Positions 4,826 through 40,101 of a stretch of 48,564 bases of DNA are shown one piece after another. The DNA lies in NCBI GenBank assembly GCA_003176165.1, contig PSRQ01000022.1:1-48564 (forward strand). Reading direction: 5' to 3'. Below the pieces are notes generated by a model, which worked only from the letters and a program-made list of their open reading frames with translations, was not told the origin of the DNA and made no database searches. The position numbers and the translations under genes were made by a program. The stretch comes from Candidatus Cerribacteria bacterium 'Amazon FNV 2010 28 9'. GTDB lineage: Bacteria > Patescibacteriota > Microgenomatia > UBA1400 > UBA12028. How positions within the stretch are numbered: position 1 is the first letter of the stretch; every line of letters begins with the position of its first letter.

Positions 4826-6103
4826 TTATGGAGTGAGAGAAAAGGTGCTGCTTTGTATGGTTGTGTCCCGTATCGTTAGCAAACATCCTCCCATGAGGAG
4901 GAGGAGAGCCAGAGGGATGATCGGGATCGCGTTGGTAATTCCAGTTGGTAAAAAATAGGCAACACCACTCGTAAACGCAAACGCTGGTAAAGTGATCCAA
5001 CGGATCGTTGTATTTCCCATGGTTTGCACCACCGCCAGGATCAGACCACACAGTGATGCCTCCAACAGTTCCGTCAGTGATCCCTGAATGGCGATATACA
5101 CGAGGAACACTCCTAGCAGGAGGAGCAGATGTGTGTCGATGTGTTTCTGACGCCGCACCCACCCGATTCCACAGACTGCTGTGAGTGCAAGCAACCCCTT
5201 TTGAAAGGTAGCCATGCTGCTCGCGAAGGGTGTAAATCCCAAGAATCGGTAACTATATGCTTCAAATGAAGCATTCGTTCCCTTGGGGACGATCCACCAG
5301 GGATAATTGATGTGGGCACTCAAGAGAAACTGTACATAGGAGGCACACAATGTCCCGAGCTGGGGTCCAGCAAAGAACACGATAGGGAGTGACGCCACCC
5401 CCAGAGCAATGCTACTGCCGCGTACGAACGCGCCTCGTTTGGAGGTGAGCAGGAGGATTGCTAGCCATACAAATATAAATTGAGGCTTGATACAAGCACT
5501 CACTATGCCTGCAGCTCCGGCCAACTGGTACTTGCCTTTTGATGTGGCAAACACCTGAAGAACCATGAGGAAAATCAATGGGCAAGCCATGTTTCCCGTA
5601 TGGATATTCATAAGATAATTGGTTGAAACGAATGCCAGACCAAAAAAAATCCGTGCATTCCATGTCCGTCGCTTTTCCTCTGGAATCATAGACCAGATCA
5701 TGATCCAGGAGGCGAGATAGCACATTGCGCTCACTATCCCTAGACCAAGCTGTATTTCCTTGTCAGAAAAGAAGCGAACCAAGACCGTCATCCATCCCAA
5801 AAATTGAGGCGGATATTGGAAAATGAGTTGATCCGGCCACGGACTCATAAAGTACTGAAACGTCCCAGTCGATAATTGGTGTGCTGCTGTCAGATACACC
5901 CGTAAATCGACATCTGGGTCAAACAGACTATTCATCTGGAAGGAGGGCGGTTTGGTGAATTTCAAATACATGACCATACACCAAAAAATTCCTCCTACGA
6001 AACCCAAGAGGAGGAGAGGAGACCAGAATTTGAATATCCCCCAGAAAGAGGAGGGCGTGTGCTCGTTTGGCTTGCCTTTGAGAGGCAGCGAAATGGTTGA
6101 CAT
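4826..6103 (-). CDS. polytopic membrane protein, GT-C / DUF2029-like glycosyltransferase (tentative)
   Basis: 425-aa ORF with more than 10 hydrophobic spans. The architecture resembles GT87/DUF2029 mannosyltransferase-like proteins, recalled from memory and not searched. Confidence 0.45.
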   Translation of the reverse strand: MSTISLPLKGKPNEHTPSSFWGIFKFWSPLLLLGFVGGIFWCMVMYLKFTKPPSFQMNSLFDPDVDLRVYLTAAHQLSTGTFQYFMSPWPDQLIFQYPPQFLGWMTVLVRFFSDKEIQLGLGIVSAMCYLASWIMIWSMIPEEKRRTWNARIFFGLAFVSTNYLMNIHTGNMACPLIFLMVLQVFATSKGKYQLAGAAGIVSACIKPQFIFVWLAILLLTSKRGAFVRGSSIALGVASLPIVFFAGPQLGTLCASYVQFLLSAHINYPWWIVPKGTNASFEAYSYRFLGFTPFASSMATFQKGLLALTAVCGIGWVRRQKHIDTHLLLLLGVFLVYIAIQGSLTELLEASLCGLILAVVQTMGNTTIRWITLPAFAFTSGVAYFLPTGITNAIPIIPLALLLLMGGCLLTIRDTTIQSSTFSLTP

Positions 6104-31039: not shown

Positions 31040-31194
31040 TTTTTGTACCATACCTTTTCTCAAAATCCATACTAGATTTTTGGTAACGGCGATCTATACT
31101 CATGCTCAATCCCGGTGAGGATTCCCACAACACGTGGGAAAAAACCTGCCACCACGACTCACTGTAGTTGTCGGTGGTAGGTGTGGTTACAACA

Positions 31195-31308
31195 TTGTCA
31201 TCCTCATGAAAATGAGGATCATGAAACGCTTGGATTGATCCGTTCGTTTCGGTTTGATCAGAACCTTTCTCACAAAGGGATGATCCTCGCCTGCGCGAGG
31301 ATGACAAA
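31195..31308. repeat. GTCATCC..GGATGAC MITE-like element with two internal hairpins
   Basis: TTGTCATCCTCAT gaaa ATGAGGAT ... ATCCTCGC ctgc GCGAGGATGACAA. Confidence 0.7.
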
Positions 31309-31381
31309 GAATTATGAAGCTCTTCTTTTGGACTTGCCTTTGTCTTCTCCTATACACGACGTTTTTACTTCATACCTACGT

Positions 31382-32536
31382 ATGGAAATGATAAAAAAAA
31401 TTCTTTTGGTTGGATTTATTTTTGTAGCGATTTTTCATGCGATTGGTATCCTCCTTCCCGAAACAGGATTTGATGCCCTGTGGTATCACTTACCAATCGT
31501 TAAAGACATGGCGGTTTCACGTGAAATACGCATAGTTCCAGATGTGCCTCAGTCTGATGAACCGCGCTTGGGCGAAGTCATGTTTTTGCCTTTTTTTGTT
31601 GTCGGCGGTGTCGTTGGAATAAAAATCTTCACGTTTATCGTCACGCTCGCGCTCATGTATTGGACATATCGATTGTGCCAACTATATTTACCAGATTCCT
31701 GGTCCTTGCTAACAACACTTCTTATCTTCACATTTCACACCATTGCGTGGGAAGCCACATCGGCATACGTGGATCAAATTCGCGCATTGATGGAGGTCGG
31801 GTTGCTAGTGTTTCTTCTTTCCAAATCAAAGTTGAGTTTTGCTCAACAATTGATCGCGTGTGTGTTGCTTACCGCCTCACTGCTCACAAAATCGGTGAGT
31901 GTATTATTTATTCCTGCATGGTTTGTGTTACTGTGGCAACAGTTCAACTGGAAGGTGAGTGTGACAATCGTTGGCCTTAGTTTATTTGCGCTCTTTGTAA
32001 CCCATCCATCATTTTCAATTTTTGGCTCCGCATCAAATCAGTTGATTGTTCAAACAGGAATTATTCACTACGTGACGACCCAATTGTTCTCATTCCTTGT
32101 GTTGCCACTGACACTTTCATTTCACGCTGAAAGTTATATGAGTGTCATTTTTTTGTTCGCAGTTCCATTTGTGTGGATCAATAGGAAATGGCTGTTGCAA
32201 ATATATCGCCCAGAACTCTTGTTCATCGCAGTTTCTCTGTTCACTTGGGTTTGGATTGTGCCTGTGTCGGTTCGCTACGATCTGAGTGGACTCATATTGT
32301 TGACGATTCTCTGTGTTGCAGTTGTTGTTCATTCATTTCCAAAAAATAAAAATTTGAAACAGCTATTTGCGCTGTTACTTGTTGGCAATATAACACTCAA
32401 CATGGTGATCCGCGTTGGGGCTGTAGTGAAAGCGTTGCCGTTTTTATTGGGACGGGAATCAGAAGTTGAATACATCAAACAGTATGATCAGGGGATTGAA
32501 AAGGGGCCGATTGAAAAGTGGTATGGAATTCATTAA
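31382..32536 (+). CDS. polytopic membrane protein, GT-C (ArnT/PMT-like) glycosyltransferase (tentative)
   Basis: More than 10 hydrophobic spans. ATG 31382 is preferred because the track start reads through the repeat element. Confidence 0.45.
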   Translation: MEMIKKILLVGFIFVAIFHAIGILLPETGFDALWYHLPIVKDMAVSREIRIVPDVPQSDEPRLGEVMFLPFFVVGGVVGIKIFTFIVTLALMYWTYRLCQLYLPDSWSLLTTLLIFTFHTIAWEATSAYVDQIRALMEVGLLVFLLSKSKLSFAQQLIACVLLTASLLTKSVSVLFIPAWFVLLWQQFNWKVSVTIVGLSLFALFVTHPSFSIFGSASNQLIVQTGIIHYVTTQLFSFLVLPLTLSFHAESYMSVIFLFAVPFVWINRKWLLQIYRPELLFIAVSLFTWVWIVPVSVRYDLSGLILLTILCVAVVVHSFPKNKNLKQLFALLLVGNITLNMVIRVGAVVKALPFLLGRESEVEYIKQYDQGIEKGPIEKWYGIH

Positions 32537-32580
32537 GGGTATACAATGCGAATTTATATAACTTAATAGAGGGCCCGTAT

Positions 32581-32922
32581 ATGTCGGAAATACAAACAAA
32601 AATTCATGCATATGAAGATGTTATTACAGCTTTTGAGTGGATGAGATATTACTTACCGTTGCCAAATAAATTAGAAGCGCAATTTTATGGTTCTGCTATG
32701 TGGTTTGCACTTGATTTTGCAAAAGCAGCTGGATTGACTGAAGATGAAATCGAGAATGCAAAACTCATTGGGCAATATAAAGGATTAGAACGCCAAAATG
32801 CAGACAAAGCAATAACGAATGTACCCAACGATCAATTGCAGGTTATAGTATCACCGTGGCAGTCAGAAGAAAAAGCTACGAAACCAGGAAATTTCTTAAA
32901 AAGAATATTAAGGCGAGAGTAA
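32581..32922 (+). CDS. hypothetical protein
   Basis: 113-aa ORF from ATG 32581. Confidence 0.45.
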   Translation: MSEIQTKIHAYEDVITAFEWMRYYLPLPNKLEAQFYGSAMWFALDFAKAAGLTEDEIENAKLIGQYKGLERQNADKAITNVPNDQLQVIVSPWQSEEKATKPGNFLKRILRRE

Positions 32923-32925
32923 CCA

Positions 32926-33267
32926 CTACTGTCCATCTTCCACGTTTTTCCATCCGCCCATGACATGCATGTGAATGTGGTGGACGAGTTGGACTCCTTT
33001 TCCCACATTCATGACAAGTTTGTAGTTGTCAGCGATTCCCATTTTTTGAGCGACTTTGCGCGCGATTAACAACAACTTCGCATGAAAGTGTTCATCGCTC
33101 ATGTCCACTTGCTCCAATGTCTCGTATGGTTTTTTAGGAATGACCAATACATGGACAGGAGCACTGGGATGAATATCATTGATAGCGATAAACTCATCGT
33201 CTTCGTACTGAATGGTCGAAGGAAGTTCGCGGTTGATGATTTTGGTAAAAATGGAGTCGTTTGGCAT
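32926..33267 (-). CDS. HIT family (histidine triad) hydrolase
   Basis: HHIHMHVMGG histidine triad. ATG 33267 is preferred to the track start inside the MITE-like repeat. Confidence 0.85.
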   Translation of the reverse strand: MPNDSIFTKIINRELPSTIQYEDDEFIAINDIHPSAPVHVLVIPKKPYETLEQVDMSDEHFHAKLLLIARKVAQKMGIADNYKLVMNVGKGVQLVHHIHMHVMGGWKNVEDGQ

Positions 33268-33280
33268 AACTTCTTTTTCT

Positions 33281-33375
33281 TTGTCATTTCGAGCGAAGTC
33301 GAGAAATCGCTTTCGGATTTTTCCTGAAAGTGATCTCTCCACTGCCAAGATTACTTGGCGCGGTCAAGATGACAA
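33281..33375 (-). repeat. MITE-like element, inverted copy of 10178-10283
   Basis: Its reverse complement aligns with 10178-10283, sharing TTGTCATCT.GACCG.GCCAAGTAATCTTGGCAGTGGAGAGATC. Confidence 0.75.
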
Positions 33376-33382
33376 TGCTATT

Positions 33383-34252
33383 TTATTCTTTGTTTAAATC
33401 TTTTATCATATCCACGATCCGATCGAGCGAAAGTGGGGAAGGGACATCCACTTTTGATTTGCTGCTGCCGTTGAGCAGCATCGTTTTACTGGGGTGAAAA
33501 TACCATGTCCCGATCGTGTCTTCTCGCTTAATCTGCTCATATAGAGGTGTTAAATCAATCTGTTTCCCAGGAATTGCTTTGATGCGGACATTACCATGCT
33601 CCGCGTTTTTACGAACAACTACTATGAATCCTTGCTTTTGTGCAAGTTTAATCGTCTCATCATTTTTACTTTCGATTGCTAATGCTTTGCCCCAGGGACT
33701 TTTGAACGGTCGCCCCTTTTGTTCGAGTTCGTGATAGGCTTCGACTTGTTGGGTTAGGACTGCATAGGCGCTATCCAGGCAAGTAAACCCGAAGTTCAAT
33801 TGCGCTAGATCATCGCTTGCGCCTGATAACCGCACTCCTTCGATGAGGTTTTGAAGAAGTAGTTGATACTTCATGTCATCCGCCTTGTCCCAAAAAACTT
33901 CTTCGAAGTGGTCAATGGTATTGACGTAATCGGCCAAAAAGAAGAGAGCCTCATCTTTAGCTAATTCAGGATGAAGCGTACACACATAATCGTATGCGAG
34001 TGTCGTCGCGCAGACACGTTGAAGACCTCGCTCTGGTTGATGGTGGTCAAAGGGACCAAGACCTGTATCCACATGGGTGATATCTTCGCGGGCGAATCCT
34101 AGGTCAGCCGCAGTACGTAGGTCAATCGTTTCGCCTGGGTTAACAAAGTCGATCTTCGCATCTGCATACGTTTCTGCATCAAAACGCTTGAGCATCCAGC
34201 AACTACCAATAGCGTCTAGATCTGGAGAATGGTGAGTGACGAGAAGTTTCAT
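33383..34252 (-). CDS. DHH-superfamily-like phosphoesterase (tentative)
   Basis: HHSPDLDAIGS, VDTG and FDHHQ motifs in DHH order. Confidence 0.55.
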   Translation of the reverse strand: MKLLVTHHSPDLDAIGSCWMLKRFDAETYADAKIDFVNPGETIDLRTAADLGFAREDITHVDTGLGPFDHHQPERGLQRVCATTLAYDYVCTLHPELAKDEALFFLADYVNTIDHFEEVFWDKADDMKYQLLLQNLIEGVRLSGASDDLAQLNFGFTCLDSAYAVLTQQVEAYHELEQKGRPFKSPWGKALAIESKNDETIKLAQKQGFIVVVRKNAEHGNVRIKAIPGKQIDLTPLYEQIKREDTIGTWYFHPSKTMLLNGSSKSKVDVPSPLSLDRIVDMIKDLNKE

Positions 34253-34297: not shown

Positions 34298-34367
34298 AAG
34301 AAACACAGAACAAGAGTTAAGAGGTAGGAAGTAAGAATCTTAACTCATAACTCTTATCTCTTAAATC
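34298..34367. repeat. ten tandem heptamers forming a self-complementary arm pair
   Basis: AAGAAAC ACAGAAC AAGAGTT AAGAGGT AGGAAGT AAGAATC TTAACTC ATAACTC TTATCTC TTAAATC. GAGTTAAGA / TCTTAACTC form a 9-bp stem. Confidence 0.7.
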
Positions 34368-34505
34368 AGTAGTGGGTCAGTTTGAAAGTCGTTTGCTGTG
34401 CTCTCAAAAGAAGTATACACTAAATGTGATACAATTCTGTTTTCTTGCTCATTAAAAAGTCACATACTGGGTCGGCGAAGAAATATCATTTCTCCAAGTA
34501 AAACA

Positions 34506-34646
34506 CTACTTGGAAACTGGTTTGTTAATTTTAATACGTTCTGTTTCTGTTGTACGTTGATGCTTAGCTGCATAAGATTCCGTTACGAATCTACCAGTGA
34601 CAGCACTTCGATTTACAACAATTGTTATTTTTTTTGTTGTTGCCAT
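34506..34646 (-). CDS. small basic protein (46 aa), not in the ORF track
   Basis: MATTKKITIVVNRSAVTGRFVTESYAAKHQRTTETERIKINKPVSK. RBS GGAAAGGAGA lies 8 nt upstream. Confidence 0.5.
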   Translation of the reverse strand: MATTKKITIVVNRSAVTGRFVTESYAAKHQRTTETERIKINKPVSK

Positions 34647-34747
34647 AATTATTCTCCTTTCCATAAGATTTCCGAAGAAAGACGGATAGAAGAAGATAAT
34701 GCCAACCCAGCGTGTAACTTTTCAATGTAATTTCCTTTGTTCTATAC

Positions 34748-34773
34748 AAAAAAGCCACCTTCGGTTTGGTGGC
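34748..34773 (-). terminator. hairpin terminator downstream of the transposase
   Basis: GCCACC ttcggttt GGTGGC hairpin with an A6 run on the plus side, which is a T-run on the minus strand. Confidence 0.5.
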
Positions 34774-34990
34774 GTTGTTTCTTTTCTCCCTGTCTCACGG
34801 CAAAAATAAAGGTCACGGCACATATCCGATGTCTTGGCTAAAAATGTTTACTTGTTAAAGATCTATAAAAAAACTCCCTTCAGGTGGTGCCGTGCCGTGC
34901 ATTGGTAGCAGCGACACCTGAAGAGAGTCTTCAACGCACATTCAAACCTGGTTCATTTTCATGAACAACTCAATCTACCACGAAAACAAT

Positions 34991-35866
34991 TCATGAGTCA
35001 ATCATGAGCTTGATAATCTCCTCTATCATCCATTGATGATCCGCAATCCCAGCAACCATTGCAGGAGTAATACCCAACGATCGTTTTGGATTGAGGGATT
35101 GATGTGGTCTGCAGAAGTTGTAATACATGAAATGCAGTGCAACCGCAGCTTCTAGGTTTTCGACTTTCTTGGAAAAGCCATTCGTAAGACGAGTAAATCT
35201 GCGCATACTCATGCGCATCGTGAGATTCTGACGTTCAACAAAGCTTGTGGAGATAAATTTCTTCTTTGGTCTACCACTGATTTTCTTTTTCTCCATGCCG
35301 ATACATTCATGTGGCGAGTAACGACGTTCATGTTCCTCCGTTTCAAAGAAAATGCGACCATACTGCTTCTCAACCATCCCGTAGTGCACGCGCTTCCCGA
35401 AAGTACCTTGAACAGCGTTCTCGTAAGCACGTAGACCATCGGTGCTGAGCTGCACCTTATTCTTCAGTCTTGGTTCCAGATCTTCCATGAAAGTGTACGC
35501 AGACTCCTCATCTCGATGACCGATGAACCATGAAATTACGAGTTTTGAATCACTATCCAGTGCTACCCAGGTCCATATGGTTCCATATCCTTCCTTTCCT
35601 TGAAGGTCTTCAGGAAGGTTCTTTTGTTTGGCGTAACAAAATGACCAGATCTCATCACATTCAATCCGAGAGCAATGAAGGTTTACCAATACTTCATCTT
35701 GATATGCTGAACACGCCTTTCCAACCCGCACCAAAAGCCTCGTAACTGTTCCTTTGGCTGTTCCCGTCATTCGACAGGTGGCACGAATGGAATTGCCTTC
35801 TACAAGGCAAGAAAGGATCTGACATTGCTTCTCTTTACTCAAGACGTTCATCCCTATATTATACAT
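34991..35866 (-). CDS. IS1 family DDE transposase
   Basis: HTH NSIRATCRMTGTAKGTV. ECDEIWSF, LSTDGLRAY and FVERQNLTMRMSMRRFTRLTNGFSKKVENL match the IS1 InsB-type catalytic core. Alternative start ATG 35851. Confidence 0.8.
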   Translation of the reverse strand: MYNIGMNVLSKEKQCQILSCLVEGNSIRATCRMTGTAKGTVTRLLVRVGKACSAYQDEVLVNLHCSRIECDEIWSFCYAKQKNLPEDLQGKEGYGTIWTWVALDSDSKLVISWFIGHRDEESAYTFMEDLEPRLKNKVQLSTDGLRAYENAVQGTFGKRVHYGMVEKQYGRIFFETEEHERRYSPHECIGMEKKKISGRPKKKFISTSFVERQNLTMRMSMRRFTRLTNGFSKKVENLEAAVALHFMYYNFCRPHQSLNPKRSLGITPAMVAGIADHQWMIEEIIKLMIDS

Positions 35867-36018
35867 GAGCGGTCAAGCACAAACTGTGGTCAATTACCAC
35901 TTTCTTTCACAAACAATGGAACGATTTAATATAGTTTGTTATAATAAGATATTGAAACAGCTAGGTAGATCAAGCGGTTCAAAATCTTTATACTGATTTT
36001 AATTAGTTGCTATCTTAT

Positions 36019-36381
36019 ATGACAGATTCTTCTTCTTTTAAAGCAATCGAGTTGACTAGAGCTTTTTTCGAATTAGTTAACGGAGAGGTTGGGCTTTTAA
36101 AGTTCAACATTGATGAATTAACAGAACTTCCAAAAGCCACAGAAAGTGATCCTGAAAAATGGGAAGTTGTTTGTAGCTTTATAGAATCTTTAGGAAGTAG
36201 TGTTCGCTCTAAATATAAGGTAACTGTTAATATCAACAACAATACTTTAATAGTAAAAAAGATTTCCCCTTTAACAGAGGCTCAAAGTCGTGCAGAGGGA
36301 GCTTGGCAATTAACACCTAAAAACCATGGAGATAATGGAGCAAGAACAGATGATTCTGGATCTAAGAAAGCACAAGAGTGA
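36019..36381 (+). CDS. hypothetical acidic protein (possible partner of the PIN-like protein)
   Basis: 120-aa ORF in AT-rich DNA. Its 3' end overlaps the next ORF. Confidence 0.45.
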   Translation: MTDSSSFKAIELTRAFFELVNGEVGLLKFNIDELTELPKATESDPEKWEVVCSFIESLGSSVRSKYKVTVNINNNTLIVKKISPLTEAQSRAEGAWQLTPKNHGDNGARTDDSGSKKAQE

Positions 36382-36895
36382 TTACTTTGGTCAATTCACA
36401 AAGAATGGTGTGATAATCGACACGTGTGTTTTACGAGTGTTAATAGATGGAACAATCCAGTCACAGTTTAGGAAAAAAACTCCCAATGACTTCAACTATC
36501 TTCTAGATTTTCTTGAACTGATAAAAATGAAAAACCAATGGAGTAAGTTTTTCATAACACCTCACATTTTAACCGAAACATGTAGGTATTTCAGAGACGA
36601 ATATAAGGATTGGGCTAATTTCCATGAACTAGTGGCCTTAATAATTCCAATCTTGGATTCAATGGGTGAGTCAAATGAAATTAAAAAAGCAGAAGTTCTT
36701 AATTCTATCGACTTTGTAAAGCCAATTATAGAAATTGGAGATATATCAATCTGCCTAATGGCAAATGATTTCGTAAAAAATAATAAAAAGATAGCATTTC
36801 TCTCGATTGACGGTGGTTTAAACGGGAAATACGCAGCAGACAAAAATGTCCTGGCAATGGACTTCAGACAAAATATTTTTAACTATATTGGTTGA
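36326..36895 (+). CDS. PIN-like domain protein (putative nuclease/toxin)
   Basis: Acidic residues in PIN-like order: VIIDTCVL, ILTET, IGDISI, SIDGG. The start is ambiguous (36326 or 36350). Confidence 0.45.
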   Translation: MEIMEQEQMILDLRKHKSDYFGQFTKNGVIIDTCVLRVLIDGTIQSQFRKKTPNDFNYLLDFLELIKMKNQWSKFFITPHILTETCRYFRDEYKDWANFHELVALIIPILDSMGESNEIKKAEVLNSIDFVKPIIEIGDISICLMANDFVKNNKKIAFLSIDGGLNGKYAADKNVLAMDFRQNIFNYIG

Positions 36896-36897
36896 TT

Positions 36898-37083
36898 TTA
36901 TTTCTTCCACCTTTTTTGAGCCGCCTTCTTCGCAATAGCTCTTCTTTTCTCTGCACTTAATTTAGCCGCTCTTGCTTTTCCACCCTTTAATCCACCTAAT
37001 CGTCCAAGAGCGACTGCAGCAGGATTCTTCTCTTTTGTCGCTCTTTCTGTTACTGACTTTGCAAGTCTATTGATATCCATCAT
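36898..37083 (-). CDS. small Lys/Ala-rich basic protein
   Basis: 61-aa ORF: KNPAAVALGRLGGLKGGKARAAKLSAEKRRAIAKKAAQKRWKK. The upstream motif is shared with the transposase gene. Confidence 0.5.
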   Translation of the reverse strand: MMDINRLAKSVTERATKEKNPAAVALGRLGGLKGGKARAAKLSAEKRRAIAKKAAQKRWKK

Positions 37084-37255
37084 CCCCCTATTTTATTCTA
37101 GTCATACATGACCGGTCAAGTACCTAACTAGAATAAATTCCAATTTGACCCACTACCCTTAAATCTTGCCCGTTTAACTTCGAACCATCTTGAGGTATAA
37201 TGCGATACGGTTAAACAAAACACTGTTTGACCAACAGGGAAGGGGGTGTTCCCTC

Positions 37256-37565: not shown

Positions 37566-39695
37566 ATGGATAGGATCCCAGGAGACATAAAGGATATAGG
37601 AAAAAGAACAACGGGTGTCATTCCTGAATCATTGCTTCCAGGTGGAAAGGTAGAAGTACGAACGGATGTGCCAGAAGATGTGGTTGTGTCGGAAAAAGCG
37701 AGATTGATGAAAACATTGTTGGAACATAGAGGGAGAGAAGGGATCTCACGCCTTGAGGAAAAACCAAGTCGGCAAGAAGAAAGAAGAACCTCTGAAGGGG
37801 AAAAAACAAAAGAGCACAGAGATCGTACAGAAAAGAGGCGATCCCTTACTCCAAAAACGAAACGGCGATCGTTATCGATCGATCAAACAGTTCATGACAT
37901 AAAAGAAAATTATCGTTTGTCGAGGACTGATCCTGTGGTTCATACAATTCGCGATACATATGCTACTTGGACTCGGACACTGCCGGTACATCGCCGAGTA
38001 TTTCATATGATTCCTCGAGCTTCCGCATTCATATTTGATGGTCCAAATAAATTATTAATTTTTACCAACGCAGCGGCTTCGGGTTCGCTCGAGATACGTA
38101 AAGAGGGTGAGACAGACAAAAAACGTCTTCCTTCGTGGATCTATGAGGTAGGTCGTGCCGTGGTTCCCAGGCAAAATGAAGATGGGACAGTCACGCTTGT
38201 TGATACCTGGAGAAAAGGAAATCCTGGGTTACGAAAAACGGAAGCCGTGTACCCTCTGGTCCAACAATTGGAAATCCCTCAGGAAGTAGAACAGCTCAAT
38301 GTCCAGGATTTATGGGCGCTCATGCTTTCTGCCGTAGCAAGCGAGTATCAGCGTACGGATGTATTACATCATGAGCGGCATGGTGTGCGCGCAGCCGTTC
38401 TCTATGGAGAGCCAGGAAAAAAGGGAAAAGGGGAGCGCAAACTGCTAGTTACCCAAGAGATTCCGTTTGATATTGCGAGTGACTCACAAAAGACAATGGA
38501 GTTTTTGCGTGAAGAAGGAAATATGATTGAGCTTCCGGCTTCTGCTGTTGATGACTTTATTGAGCTTGGACACAAAGGGAACTTACGCATGGGGGATGAA
38601 TTAGGGAAAAGTGACGTTCGTAGATTAACTGAGCCGCAAAGAAAAGCACTGCAAAGCATTGATGTGTGTCTGAGCGTGCGTACAGATGGAGAGTATACAG
38701 AGTTTTCTCAGGCAACTGGTGGTGTGTTAGCTCGTCAACAAATTGAAATGGTATTTCATGAGCAAGAGAAAAACAAGCAAACATACACAATTGATTTTAC
38801 GGTACATTATTCACACCCGTACGTAGATGGAAAAGATGCACTTCCCGCCTTTCGACGCACAAAAAAGAATTTTATTGACAAGGTAAATGAGGTACTCCCT
38901 GGAAAACATGATGAAATACGAGAATTGCGCAGTATGCCAGAAAAAGTGGGAAATGATATCCGTATGTTGGAAGTTTTTTCGAGAGAAGAATGGACTGCTC
39001 TGTATCAAGACATACAGCAGATTCGAAACTTCTTGATGCAGCACGCCACAGAGTTTAACCTGAATGAAAAGGCACTTCTGGCCCAGATGAGTCCTTCGCG
39101 CTTCATTGCAGATCTGATTGATGAATATTTTGGCATTGAAGTGTCTCATTTTCTAGATGCAGAAAGTGGTACCGGTGCTGTAGCACCAACACCATCCTTT
39201 TCCACCCATCTTGTGGAGCGATTAAAAAGTAAAAATCCTCGTCAAATAGAGAAAGCGGGGAAGCTTTTAGCCATTAATGCAACACTGAAAGATCTTTCTC
39301 AAAATCGGGAAGGTCTAGTCCTGGAAACAGCACTCAACACCAGTGGGGCTGCGCGCCCTGGGTTGGAAGTATTGTCGGGCTTTACTCTTCCTCAAGCCCA
39401 GAAGATGCTGACTCGAGTAAAAGCTATGCACTCAGTCGTTATTCAGGATGGAAATATATCCGGGTTTGGATCAGCTCAGGGGTTTTATGATCGCGGTATT
39501 GTTTTTGGATACGCATTTGCCAATCCCAGAGAAAAGGGAGATAATTCTGACCCAGGTCTTATTCTTTCTTTACGGCTTGGTAACAAAATGGGTAGAAAAT
39601 TGCGAAGTTTAGGAAATGCTGTGACCGCTGAAGATATACGTAAGCATATACAAGAAAAAGTGAAAAGTCTGAAAGAAGCATATTCTATCCAGTAA
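37566..39695 (+). CDS. large orphan cytoplasmic protein (709 aa)
   Basis: Long ORF with no TM segment, an Arg/Lys/Glu-rich N-terminal region, and no motif I recognise. Confidence 0.7.
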   Translation: MDRIPGDIKDIGKRTTGVIPESLLPGGKVEVRTDVPEDVVVSEKARLMKTLLEHRGREGISRLEEKPSRQEERRTSEGEKTKEHRDRTEKRRSLTPKTKRRSLSIDQTVHDIKENYRLSRTDPVVHTIRDTYATWTRTLPVHRRVFHMIPRASAFIFDGPNKLLIFTNAAASGSLEIRKEGETDKKRLPSWIYEVGRAVVPRQNEDGTVTLVDTWRKGNPGLRKTEAVYPLVQQLEIPQEVEQLNVQDLWALMLSAVASEYQRTDVLHHERHGVRAAVLYGEPGKKGKGERKLLVTQEIPFDIASDSQKTMEFLREEGNMIELPASAVDDFIELGHKGNLRMGDELGKSDVRRLTEPQRKALQSIDVCLSVRTDGEYTEFSQATGGVLARQQIEMVFHEQEKNKQTYTIDFTVHYSHPYVDGKDALPAFRRTKKNFIDKVNEVLPGKHDEIRELRSMPEKVGNDIRMLEVFSREEWTALYQDIQQIRNFLMQHATEFNLNEKALLAQMSPSRFIADLIDEYFGIEVSHFLDAESGTGAVAPTPSFSTHLVERLKSKNPRQIEKAGKLLAINATLKDLSQNREGLVLETALNTSGAARPGLEVLSGFTLPQAQKMLTRVKAMHSVVIQDGNISGFGSAQGFYDRGIVFGYAFANPREKGDNSDPGLILSLRLGNKMGRKLRSLGNAVTAEDIRKHIQEKVKSLKEAYSIQ

Positions 39696-39708
39696 GAAAG
39701 GAATAAAT

Positions 39709-40101
39709 ATGGATAACATAGATAGACAACGATATTCAACATTGCAACTCACAGAGGATGAAAAAAACGAATTGAGCAACAACATTAAGACGGGCCTCAT
39801 TGATTGGCTTCAAAAATTTCCTCCAGAGAAACTTGGGAAAAAAATAAATGTACACTATGGAGGAGCACAGTACGCAATAACGGTAAATAAGACATCGTCC
39901 AATGGCTTTATCGTCGATATTGATGGCGCAAATTCTCCAATTAGTTCTTTCTCTGTTCTTAAAGAAAAGGATAATTGGGATGTAGCGGTTGTGGATACTG
40001 GTGATTTTGATACAAGGAAGATGGATGATCTTAACACCTCGAGCTTTAGAGAGACTTTGTTGATTCTTTTTATGACAGATAAAAGGGATACTCGTTCATG
40101 A
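39709..40101 (+). CDS. hypothetical protein (130 aa)
   Basis: RBS GAAAGGA upstream. Its TGA overlaps the ybeY ATG (ATGA). Confidence 0.55.
   Translation: MDNIDRQRYSTLQLTEDEKNELSNNIKTGLIDWLQKFPPEKLGKKINVHYGGAQYAITVNKTSSNGFIVDIDGANSPISSFSVLKEKDNWDVAVVDTGDFDTRKMDDLNTSSFRETLLILFMTDKRDTRS

What the first reader, a model, noticed from the sequence alone, without database searches (positions are those of the whole stretch)
34368..37157. 2.79 kb IS1-family transposon with 8-bp target duplication and cargo genes
The outer ends are AGTAGTGGGTCAGTTTGAA and, reverse-complemented, GGTAGTGGGTCAAATTGGA (15/19 matching; GGTA.TG-type ends as I recall for IS1). They are flanked by the direct repeat CTTAAATC (34360-67 and 37158-65). 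Inside are an IS1-like single-ORF DDE transposase, a 46-aa basic ORF, an AT-rich pair (a 120-aa acidic protein plus a PIN-like protein), and a 61-aa Lys/Ala-rich protein. An IS1-like end candidate (reverse complement GGTAATTGACCAC, 35886-35900) lies just upstream of the transposase. The unit may therefore be an IS of about 1.5 kb that has captured 1.25 kb of neighbouring DNA by using a second right end. IS elements are reported to be rare in very small genomes, and cargo-carrying IS1 derivatives are uncommon.
Basis: partly seen in the sequence, partly recalled or inferred. Interest (0 to 1): 0.62.

Follow-up and report, generated by a model that had tools for sequence, protein, structure and literature searches.

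The report
Cargo-carrying IS1-family transposon in CPR genome
This is a real 2.79-kb jumping gene of the IS1 family carrying a toxin-antitoxin-like gene pair; it is a typical member of a large cross-phylum group built the same way, not an insertion sequence that grabbed neighbouring DNA.

Summary
Window 34368-37157 is bounded by 19-nt inverted repeats (15/19 identical) and an exact 8-bp duplication, CTTAAATC.

The same ends (GGTAGTGGGTCAGTTTGAA) with exact 8-bp (one 9-bp) duplications bound 62 of 80 related loci from many phyla. Two cultured-strain plasmids show the same ends and 8-bp duplications. These elements are 1.9-4.5 kb long, so all carry extra genes.

- The 61-aa Lys/Ala-rich gene beside the outer end is a conserved core gene, here called "orfA". 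It is present in 61/63 elements (62 plus the window's) and is co-oriented and upstream of tnp in 57.
- The 20-nt repeat upstream of both orfA and tnp is a family-wide palindromic promoter motif.
- The proposed internal end matches the inverted repeat no better than shuffled sequence.

The layout is IRL, orfA, cargo slot 1, tnp, cargo slot 2, IRR. Slot 1 here holds a rare two-gene module: a 120-aa protein plus a 181-aa PIN-fold (VapC-like) protein. Slot 2 holds a 46-aa protein and hairpins.

The element is single-copy in this 1.06-Mb genome and absent from 40 relatives. It is the only one of 63 whose terminal dinucleotide is not GG, so it may be crippled.

No empty site was found.

The parts
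34360..34367 (.). Target-site duplication, left copy (CTTAAATC)
34368..34386 (+). Terminal inverted repeat at the transposase-distal end (IRR), AGTAGTGGGTCAGTTTGAA. The terminal base is A instead of the family's G.
   Evidence: It is the only non-GG terminus among 63 elements.
34491..34516 (-). Terminator-like hairpin after the 46-aa ORF
34506..34646 (-). Cargo slot 2: 46-aa basic protein (MATTKKITIVVNRSAVTGRFVT...). It belongs to a small-protein family whose members occur as single or tandem-duplicated units. Function unknown.
   Evidence: 87 representatives at E<=1e-3. Weak DUF7699 match.
34754..34773 (.). Bidirectional intrinsic-terminator-like hairpin downstream of tnp
34870..34931 (-). 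Long hairpin in the spacer after the tnp stop. The 256-nt spacer folds with z = -2.9. No Rfam or tRNA match.
   Evidence: (I11)
34991..35851 (-). IS1-family single-ORF DDE transposase, 286 aa from the family-consensus start MNVLSKEK (the open frame extends to 35866). N-terminal HTH; D71, D143 and E211 in 291-aa numbering.
   Evidence: 8000 hits, capped; collinear with E. coli InsA HTH and the InsB TDG and ERxNL blocks.
35861..35880 (-). Copy 1 of the palindromic promoter/operator motif (GTGCTTGACCGCTCATGTAT followed by TATAAT) just upstream of tnp
   Evidence: (D6)
35886..35900 (.). It lies between the divergent tnp and cargo promoters and is not an IS end.
35906..35935 (+). Promoter-like site for the cargo pair (TTCACA, 18 nt, TATAGT)
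36019..36381 (+). Cargo slot 1, gene 1: 120-aa acidic protein. It is the conserved upstream partner of the PIN-like protein and a putative antitoxin. No known family.
   Evidence: 41-45 % identity to the partners in other loci; no family or PDB hit.
36350..36895 (+). Cargo slot 1, gene 2: 181-aa PIN-fold (VapC-like) protein and putative toxin/RNase. D24, E76, D131 and D154 are invariant.
   Evidence: pLDDT 83.9, pTM 0.82; PAE2754, PAE0151, VapC, FitB; probability 1.0.
36898..37083 (-). orfA: 61-aa Lys/Ala-rich, four-helix basic protein. It is a conserved core gene of this IS1 branch. Public records label it 'hypothetical' or 'histone H1'.
37090..37123 (-). orfA promoter (TTGACC, 18 nt, TAAAAT) overlapping copy 2 of the palindromic motif (ACTTGACCGGTCATGT; the 10-bp palindrome is TGACCGGTCA)
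   Evidence: (D6)
37139..37157 (-). Terminal inverted repeat next to orfA (IRL), GGTAGTGGGTCAAATTGGA
37158..37165 (.). Target-site duplication, right copy (CTTAAATC). It lies 9 bp upstream of the rpsU promoter-like site at 37174-37201.

Best explanation
Window 34368-37157 is one transposable element. It is a 'transporter IS' (an IS carrying passenger genes) from a distant single-ORF branch of the IS1 family.

Shown:
- A DDE transposase with an N-terminal HTH sits inside terminal inverted repeats of the GGTAGTGGGTCAGTTTGAA type.
- Insertion duplicated 8 bp of the target, in the intergenic region just upstream of the rpsU promoter.
- The element follows a family-wide plan: IRL, small basic protein OrfA, cargo slot 1, transposase, cargo slot 2 (empty in many relatives), IRR.
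- orfA and tnp each have their own promoter, and both promoters carry the same palindrome (CTTGA-N4-TCAAG).
- Slot 1 here holds a two-gene module, a 120-aa partner plus a PIN-fold protein. The same module is found elsewhere only in mobile contexts.
- Slot 2 holds a 46-aa protein and hairpins.

Inferred:
- The transposase binds the repeats and moves the whole 2.79 kb by the IS1-type DDE route (simple insertion or cointegrate).
- OrfA, or the transposase HTH acting as a dimer, binds the shared palindrome and co-regulates the two promoters. This would be functionally analogous to InsA repression in IS1.
- The PIN pair acts as a VapBC-like addiction or defence module that helps the element persist.
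- This copy was acquired laterally and may be impaired, because one terminus reads AG instead of GG and the repeats have diverged.
For: Ends and duplication:
- IR and TSD in the window.
- Identical architecture in 62/80 loci from many phyla, with 8-bp TSDs and lengths of 1862-4545 bp.
- The same architecture on plasmids of Mesorhizobium loti (3370 bp, TSD CGCTGGTG) and Acidiphilium multivorum (2634 bp, TSD AAGCCGAG).

Transposase family:
- Pfam DDE_Tnp_IS1 scores 33.1 bits against a cut-off of 24.1.
- The best NCBIfam match is IS1, at 59 bits.
- The family profile aligns collinearly with the E. coli InsA HTH and with the InsB TDG and ERHNLNLR...FSK blocks.
- D71, D143 and E211 are at least 97 % conserved.

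orfA:
- Present in 61/63 elements, co-oriented and upstream of tnp in 57, ending within 450 nt of IRL in 44.
- G30, K33, G34, G35, R38, R58 and W59 are invariant.
- The AlphaFold2 model is a confident four-helix protein.

Operator motif:
- Within 4 mismatches of a 16-mer, it occurs at the tnp promoter in 28/63 elements and at the orfA promoter in 26/63. Shuffled elements give 0.1 hits each.

Cargo:
- The PIN fold is supported.
- The partner gene is conserved alongside it.
- The module's other occurrences are mobile contexts.
- Across the family, cargo is dominated by TA- and defence-like genes: HTH/Peptidase_M78, SDH protease, P63C, NYN, Panacea, RelA_SpoT, AbiEii-type AAA_21, Phd/YefM.

Copy number:
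- One copy in the genome.
- Absent from 40 relatives.
Against: - No empty site or second copy of this particular element was found. The genome's relatives have a different gene order at this spot. The 31-mer empty-site junction is absent from JGI metagenome contigs.
- Similarity to canonical IS1 is detectable only at profile level. The NCBIfam IS1 score is below its cut-off. tblastn found no enterobacterial IS1 among its plasmid hits.
- The N-terminal zinc finger of InsA and the programmed frameshift are absent.
- The functions of OrfA, the palindrome and the PIN pair are untested. OrfA has no PDB hit by sequence or fold.
- The palindrome arms resemble a -35 box, so the motif could be purely a promoter feature.
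- The AG terminus and the 15/19 repeats may mean this copy no longer transposes.
Confidence: 0.85

Rival explanations
1. A ~1.5-kb minimal IS (34368-35900) mobilised 1.25 kb of adjacent host DNA (35901-37157) by using a second, more distant right end.
For: A sequence with GGTA...CAGTTTG lies at 35880-35900 just upstream of tnp. A 20-nt repeat links the regions upstream of tnp and of the 61-aa gene (D6).
Against: - The outer end plus the 61-aa gene is the conserved family arm: orfA occurs in 61/63 elements, in 44 as the first gene inside IRL.
- All 62 relatives carry cargo between orfA and tnp or after tnp.
- The best interior match to the inverted repeat is no better than shuffles, 61-95 % of which reach it.
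- 35886-35900 is a palindrome.
- The 20-nt repeat is the family promoter motif.
- The cargo's homologues travel as a module in other mobile contexts.
Confidence: 0.04
2. The element is an immobilised relic. It was a genuine IS1-branch transporter IS when it inserted, but it can no longer transpose and persists only through its intact genes, for example the addiction module.
For: - It is the only one of 63 elements with a non-GG terminus (AG at 34368), and its repeats are among the four most diverged (15/19; 57/63 have at least 17/19).
- It is single-copy, and the genome holds no solo ends or MITEs.
- The transposase differs from the consensus at three columns that are at least 90 % conserved, including D161H.
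- G1 and G2 are essential in the IS26 ends, which share GGnnnTG (PMC6807381).
Against: - All ORFs are intact.
- The DDE residues and 94/97 conserved columns are kept.
- The target duplication is still perfect, which argues for a fairly recent insertion.
- The effect of G1A has not been tested for this family.
Confidence: 0.35
3. The element is a nested or composite structure. On this view two independent elements, an orfA-bearing one and a tnp-bearing one, fused, or one inserted into the other.
For: Some relatives have IR-like words (TCAGTTTGAA with at most 1 mismatch) near the tnp start: 26 interior hits against 13.7 expected.
Against: - There is no internal target duplication and no complete internal repeat in the window.
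- Most interior hits are the recurrent GGTCAGTATGAA word that overlaps the tnp start codon.
- The arrangement is constant across phyla.
Confidence: 0.03

Closest known systems
IS1 of Escherichia coli (IS1A, insA/insB; IS1 family as defined in ISfinder)
   Same: - DDE chemistry.
- Ends of the GGnnnTG type: IS1A has GGTAATG and GGTGATG, this element has GGTAGTG.
- An 8-9-bp target duplication (PMC10425158 Table 8).
- A collinear HTH, then the D, TDG and ERxNL...FSK blocks.
- A small separate DNA-binding-type protein encoded next to the left end.
   Different: - 2790 bp against 768 bp.
- The transposase is a single ORF with no -1 frameshift and no InsA zinc finger.
- The small protein OrfA is unrelated to InsA. 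It is a separate gene with its own promoter.
- The element has two cargo slots.
- Similarity is seen only at profile level.
Transporter IS (tIS), that is, IS with passenger genes (Siguier et al. 2009, as cited in PMC3129680, PMC7986276 and PMC9330008)
   Same: A single transposase, terminal repeats and passenger genes unrelated to transposition all lie inside the repeats and move as one unit.
   Different: - In this branch cargo is the rule, seen in 62/62 relatives, rather than an occasional feature.
- Cargo sits in two defined slots.
- A conserved second gene (orfA) and a shared operator-like palindrome accompany the transposase.
- I found no open-access description of this branch: 'ISMhu11' gave 0 papers. 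From memory only, the ISfinder IS1 subgroup with sizes up to 4.6 kb may correspond to it.
Tn3-family transposons carrying toxin-antitoxin passengers (cited in PMC9330008)
   Same: A transposon carries a TA-type module, plausibly for its own maintenance.
   Different: The transposase family differs (Tn3 TnpA plus a resolvase, with a 5-bp duplication). Tn3-family elements are much larger, and their TA genes lie next to the res site.
VapBC (PIN-domain) type II toxin-antitoxin systems
   Same: - Two-gene operon with a small upstream partner.
- The downstream protein has a PIN fold and the four conserved acidic residues.
   Different: - The PIN protein is larger (181 aa against ~130) and matches no Pfam PIN model.
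- The 120-aa partner shows no RHH, AbrB or HTH family match.
- The family is tiny: 9 clusters among 5.8 billion proteins.
- Toxicity and neutralisation are untested.

Membership tests
IS1 family (ISfinder definition) | DDE transposase homologous to IS1 InsAB' | tested here: met
   - PF03400 scores 33.1 bits, above the gathering cut-off of 24.1.
- NCBIfam IS1 is the best family at 59 bits, but below its 100-bit cut-off.
- The family HMM aligns collinearly to the InsA HTH and to the InsB TDG and ERHNL-FSK blocks.
- PGAP names relatives 'IS1 family transposase'.
IS1 family (ISfinder definition) | Terminal inverted repeats beginning GGnnnTG | tested here: met
   IRL is GGTAGTG. IRR is AGTAGTG, with the first base changed. 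The family consensus is GGTAGTG at 95-100 % per position. The definition comes from PMC10425158 and PMC6807381.
IS1 family (ISfinder definition) | Target duplication of 8-9 bp | tested here: met
   8 bp here. 8 bp in 61 relatives and 9 bp in one.
IS1 family (ISfinder definition) | Two overlapping ORFs (insA, insB') joined by a -1 frameshift; length 740-1180 bp | tested here: not met
   The transposase is a single 286-aa ORF and the element is 2790 bp long. From memory, ISfinder recognises single-ORF IS1 subgroups, so this does not exclude family membership. It does exclude the canonical subgroup.
Transporter IS (tIS) | Passenger genes unrelated to transposition lie inside the IRs of an element with a single transposase | tested here: met
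   The PIN-like pair and the 46-aa gene lie inside the IR/TSD boundaries.
VapBC-like type II toxin-antitoxin module (cargo) | PIN fold with four conserved acidic residues | tested here: met
   The AlphaFold2 model has pTM 0.82. Foldseek top hits are PIN/VapC structures at probability 1.0, with TM 0.52 by query and 0.67 by target. D24, E76, D131 and D154 are invariant in 9 sequences.
VapBC-like type II toxin-antitoxin module (cargo) | Upstream antitoxin with a DNA-binding domain that neutralises the toxin | tested here: inconclusive
   A conserved upstream 100-120-aa partner is always present. It has no recognisable antitoxin or DNA-binding family.
VapBC-like type II toxin-antitoxin module (cargo) | Toxicity of the PIN protein and its rescue by the partner | not testable with these tools
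   This needs expression assays.

The most novel reading that the evidence does not exclude
This branch of the IS1 family may be an undescribed, cross-phylum class of two-slot gene shuttles. Its defining features would be the ends GGTAGTGGGTCAGTTTGAA, 8-bp duplications, an obligatory second protein OrfA (the ~60-90-aa 'histone H1'-labelled protein with the motif GRLGGLKGGKARA..L..E.R..IAKKAA..RW), and a shared palindromic operator on the orfA and tnp promoters. OrfA would be a new kind of transposition regulator or accessory factor. The slots would preferentially carry toxin-antitoxin and anti-phage genes. If so, uncharacterised passengers such as the window's 120-aa/PIN-like pair and its 46-aa protein would be candidate new addiction or defence genes, here delivered into a reduced CPR genome.
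Probability: 0.35. Interest if true: 0.55.

Novelty: new member of a known kind. Interest (0 to 1): 0.3.

Why it matters
For this genome it is an ordinary event. A single, laterally acquired transposon sits upstream of rpsU in a 1-Mb CPR genome whose 40 sampled relatives lack it.

The wider value is at family level.
- Public annotation labels only the transposase and calls the conserved partner gene 'hypothetical' or 'histone H1'.
- Recognising the full IR-to-IR unit defines what is cargo.
- It flags uncharacterised passengers as candidate toxin-antitoxin or defence genes.
- It points to an untested regulatory protein and operator pair in a very widespread IS group.

This result also corrects the idea that this element arose by ad hoc capture of neighbouring DNA.

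Tried and rejected
- Second copy, solo ends or MITEs in the same genome: none. A DNA search and an IR pattern with up to 3 mismatches found only the two ends plus one chance hit.
- Empty site in relatives: not obtainable. 12 of 13 family relatives have DHH, HIT and rpsU co-directional, whereas the window has the DHH-HIT pair inverted. The DHH-start/rpsU junction therefore does not exist in them.
- Empty-site 31-mer in JGI metagenome contigs: 0 matches.
- Internal IS end at 35886-35900: rejected as chance plus a palindrome.
- IR-mediated inversion as the cause of the DHH-HIT inversion: rejected. The direct 8-bp duplication is intact and there is no second copy or IR remnant.
- RNA cargo in the slot-2 spacer: no Rfam match near any gathering score and no tRNA. 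The fold z-score of -2.9 is unremarkable for a spacer containing terminators.
- OrfA identity: no Pfam, NCBIfam or PADLOC family, only a weak PHROG of unknown function; no PDB sequence hit and no Foldseek hit.
- The RES-Xre pair next to the Acidiphilium copy looked like slot-2 cargo at first. It lies outside the IRR.
- Literature: 'ISMhu11' returned no paper. The key reviews (PMID 26104715 and 19286454) are not held.
Full report
**Observation**

The + strand at 34368-34386 reads AGTAGTGGGTCAGTTTGAA. The reverse complement of 37139-37157 reads GGTAGTGGGTCAAATTGGA, so 15/19 positions agree. CTTAAATC flanks both ends directly, at 34360-67 and 37158-65.

**Transposase**

The 34991-35866 (-) ORF matches Pfam DDE_Tnp_IS1 above its gathering score (33.1 against 24.1 bits). 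Its best NCBIfam match is IS1, at 59 bits. That is below the curated cut-off of 100; IS1595 and IS6 score about 28.

I built an HMM from 60 family members. It aligns collinearly with E. coli K-12 IS1A proteins:
- its N-terminal HTH aligns with the InsA HTH ([37 protein letters not shown]);
- its TDG block aligns with InsB WMTDGWPLY;
- its VERQNLTMR...FSKKVE block aligns with InsB IERHNLNLR...FSKSVE.

D71, D143 and E211 are at least 97 % conserved. The InsA zinc finger and the frameshift are absent. tblastn against 72,556 plasmids found no enterobacterial IS1, only relatives of this branch and Deinococcus IS1-type genes. The protein therefore belongs to a distant single-ORF branch of IS1.

The family start consensus (MNKLS.EK) places the likely start at ATG 35851, giving 286 aa.

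**Relatives reproduce the ends**

I fetched 80 loci from species-representative genomes. Transposase identity to the window's was 54-65 %. The hosts include Levybacteria, Chloroflexota, Acidobacteriota, Planctomycetota, Nitrospirota, Desulfobacterota-type MAGs and others.

A script searched each locus for an exact 8/9-bp direct repeat bracketing inverted repeats. It found a complete element in 62 of 80 loci, most with 16/16 identical ends.
- The pooled end consensus is GGTAGTGGGTCAGTTTGAA.
- The duplication is 8 bp in 61 loci and 9 bp in one.
- Lengths run from 1862 to 4545 bp.

The closest metagenomic relatives (70-73 % identity) behave the same way. L004 is 3067 bp with TSD CGAATTTC, and L006 is 3128 bp with TSD AAAATGTG.

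So do plasmids of cultured bacteria. The Mesorhizobium loti copy is 3370 bp with TSD CGCTGGTG. The Acidiphilium multivorum copy is 2634 bp with TSD AAGCCGAG.

The transposase gene is only ~0.86 kb, so every one of these elements carries extra genes.

**Architecture**

I clustered all ORFs of the 63 elements (the 62 plus the window's). The 61-aa Lys/Ala-rich protein turned out to be a core gene.

An HMM search of six-frame translations gave these counts:
- the domain is present in 61/63 elements;
- it is co-oriented with and upstream of tnp in 57;
- it ends within 450 nt of the left end in 44.

G30, K33, G34, G35, R38, A51, R58 and W59 are invariant among 54 aligned sequences. AlphaFold2 gives a confident four-helix model with pLDDT 84.8. 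There is no PDB hit by sequence or fold and no Pfam or NCBIfam family. Public records call it 'hypothetical' or 'histone H1'.

The common plan is IRL, orfA, cargo slot 1, tnp, then one of two endings. Either IRR follows 9 nt after the stop codon, or a second cargo slot comes before IRR.

The window follows this plan:
- orfA at 37083-36898;
- slot 1, holding the 120-aa and 181-aa pair on the opposite strand;
- tnp;
- a 623-bp slot 2, holding hairpins and the 46-aa ORF.

**Shared promoter motif**

Upstream of tnp, most relatives have TTGACAaTGCTTGAGCGGTCAAGTATAAT. A near-copy lies between IRL and orfA.

Within 4 mismatches of the 16-mer GCTTGAGCGGTCAAGC, the motif occurs at the tnp promoter in 28/63 elements and at the orfA promoter in 26/63. 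Shuffled elements give 0.1 hits each.

The arms CTTGA and TCAAG are constant, while the central 4 nt vary (CCGG, GCGC, GCGG). This pattern is typical of a dimeric-repressor operator.

The window's two copies are at 35861-35880 and 37104-37123, 18/20 identical (D6).

That OrfA or the transposase HTH binds the palindrome is my inference. It would be analogous to InsA repression in IS1.

**Internal 'end'**

GTGGTCAATTACCAC at 35886-35900 is a 5-bp-stem palindrome between the divergent tnp and cargo promoters. A gapped local alignment of the IRs against the element's interior gives a best score of 8-9. Between 61 % and 95 % of shuffles reach that score, and the best hit is not this site. No equivalent is conserved in relatives. 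The capture-by-second-end model is therefore not supported.

**Cargo**

- The 181-aa protein has only 8 other clusters among 5.8 billion proteins, including Patescibacteria and metagenome records.
- D24, E76, D131 and D154 are invariant.
- Its AlphaFold2 model has pLDDT 83.9 and pTM 0.82.
- The model hits PIN/VapC structures (PAE2754, PAE0151, AF0591, Shigella and M. tuberculosis VapC, FitB) at probability 1.0.
- In every other locus it is preceded by a 100-110-aa homologue of the window's 120-aa protein, at 41-45 % identity.
- Those loci are mobile-looking neighbourhoods with a serine recombinase, HTH genes and methyltransferases.

This is a VapBC-like organisation, with an unclassified partner.

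The 46-aa ORF belongs to a real small-protein family. It has 87 representatives, often as tandem two-unit proteins.

Across the family, 131 cargo ORFs match mainly these Pfam families:

| Pfam family | ORFs |
|---|---|
| HTH_3 | 12 |
| SDH_protease | 9 |
| P63C | 8 |
| Peptidase_M78 | 5 |
| NYN | 2 |
| SocA_Panacea | 2 |

Single ORFs match RelA_SpoT, AbiEii-type AAA_21, a dCTP-deaminase-like family, Phd/YefM and a methylase. Overall this is a TA- and defence-flavoured set.

The core genes have host-like GC (tnp 44.6 %, orfA 41.9 %, window 43.6 %). The cargo is at 33-36 %.

**State and history of this copy**

- It is the only copy in the 1.06-Mb assembly, which holds no solo ends.
- The transposase is absent from 40 relatives of the same family and order.
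- It is the only one of 63 elements whose terminus is not GG (AG at 34368).
- Its IR pair is among the four most diverged.
- 94 of 97 strongly conserved transposase columns are kept, and the duplication is perfect.

It may be a recently inserted copy with an impaired end. That needs an assay.

**Empty site**

None was found. In 12 of 13 family relatives the order is DHH, HIT, rpsU on one strand. In the window the DHH-HIT pair is inverted, and the element lies at its right boundary. The intact direct duplication and the lack of a second copy argue against IS-mediated inversion. The rebuilt 31-mer empty junction is absent from JGI metagenome contigs.

**Comparison with what is known**

ISfinder's IS1 definition, as reproduced in PMC10425158, is 740-1180 bp, an 8-9-bp DR, GGnnnTG ends, two CDS and DDE chemistry. 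PMC6807381 also notes GGnnnTG for IS1. The element meets the ends, the duplication and the chemistry. It does not meet the size or the two-ORF frameshift layout.

IS with passenger genes ('transporter IS') are an established category (PMC3129680, PMC7986276, PMC9330008). I found no open paper describing this branch, its orfA or its operator. The key reviews are not held, so I cannot exclude that ISfinder already lists such elements.

Earlier AI notes from this scan describe the same family in other genomes. I treated them as leads and re-derived every point here.

**Verdict**

This is a real, well-delimited IS1-branch transporter IS and a new member of a known kind. Interest is modest. It lies mainly in the family-level architecture and in the uncharacterised passengers.

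Noticed in passing
window 32926-34252 (HIT and DHH-family genes, - strand) and flanks: The DHH-HIT gene pair is inverted compared with 12 of 13 same-family genomes, which have DHH, HIT and rpsU co-directional. The transposon lies at the right boundary of the inverted block. The intact 8-bp direct duplication and the absence of a second copy argue against IS-mediated inversion.
   Followed up: partly
window 31181-32922 (+) and 37566-40101 (+): Two blocks are absent from the four close relatives compared and have no Pfam family: a 451-aa plus 134-aa pair left of HIT, and a 709-aa plus 130-aa pair between rpsU and ybeY. The rpsU neighbourhood looks like a hotspot for lineage-specific insertions.
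   Followed up: partly
related loci, e.g. L011:3867-4871(-), L085:3836-4894(-), L066:3847-4893(-), L031:3815-4957(+): The OrfA Lys/Ala-rich motif also occurs in ~335-380-aa P63C-domain proteins (the P63C domain itself lies C-terminal, at residues ~203-332). These proteins are recurrent cargo of the same elements. phrog_2384 (338 aa) matches the window's OrfA motif at its profile positions 8-38. The motif is therefore a reusable module, not confined to the IS.
   Followed up: partly
related elements, e.g. L013, L016, L024, L029, L047, L050, L051, L065: In many elements the first slot-1 cargo gene is convergent with orfA, and the two genes end within a few nucleotides of each other or overlap by about 4 nt. 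In the window the two stop codons are 2 nt apart (36895 and 36898). This suggests a precise cargo boundary at the orfA stop.
   Followed up: no
related elements, tnp start region: About a dozen elements have GGTCAGTATGAA overlapping the tnp start codon. It differs by one base from the inner IR word GGTCAGTTTGAA. This could be a transposase-binding site for autoregulation, or a coincidence.
   Followed up: no
L066 and L080 (same Terriglobia MAG): Two family elements in one genome share 88.5 % DNA identity over the 844-bp transposase segment only. They differ in cargo and length (3121 and 3522 bp), which is consistent with cargo exchange between conserved arms.
   Followed up: partly
L112 (Acidiphilium multivorum plasmid NZ_CP041717.1), locus 4883-5721: An annotated RES-domain toxin / MbcA-ParS-Xre antitoxin pair lies immediately outside the IRR of the family element. 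It is adjacent to the element, not cargo.
   Followed up: yes
window 34298-34367: The insertion target is the end of a short self-complementary region (inverted repeats at 34312-34329/34338-34355 and 34314-34336/34345-34367). It lies upstream of the DHH-family gene. I did not analyse it further.
   Followed up: no
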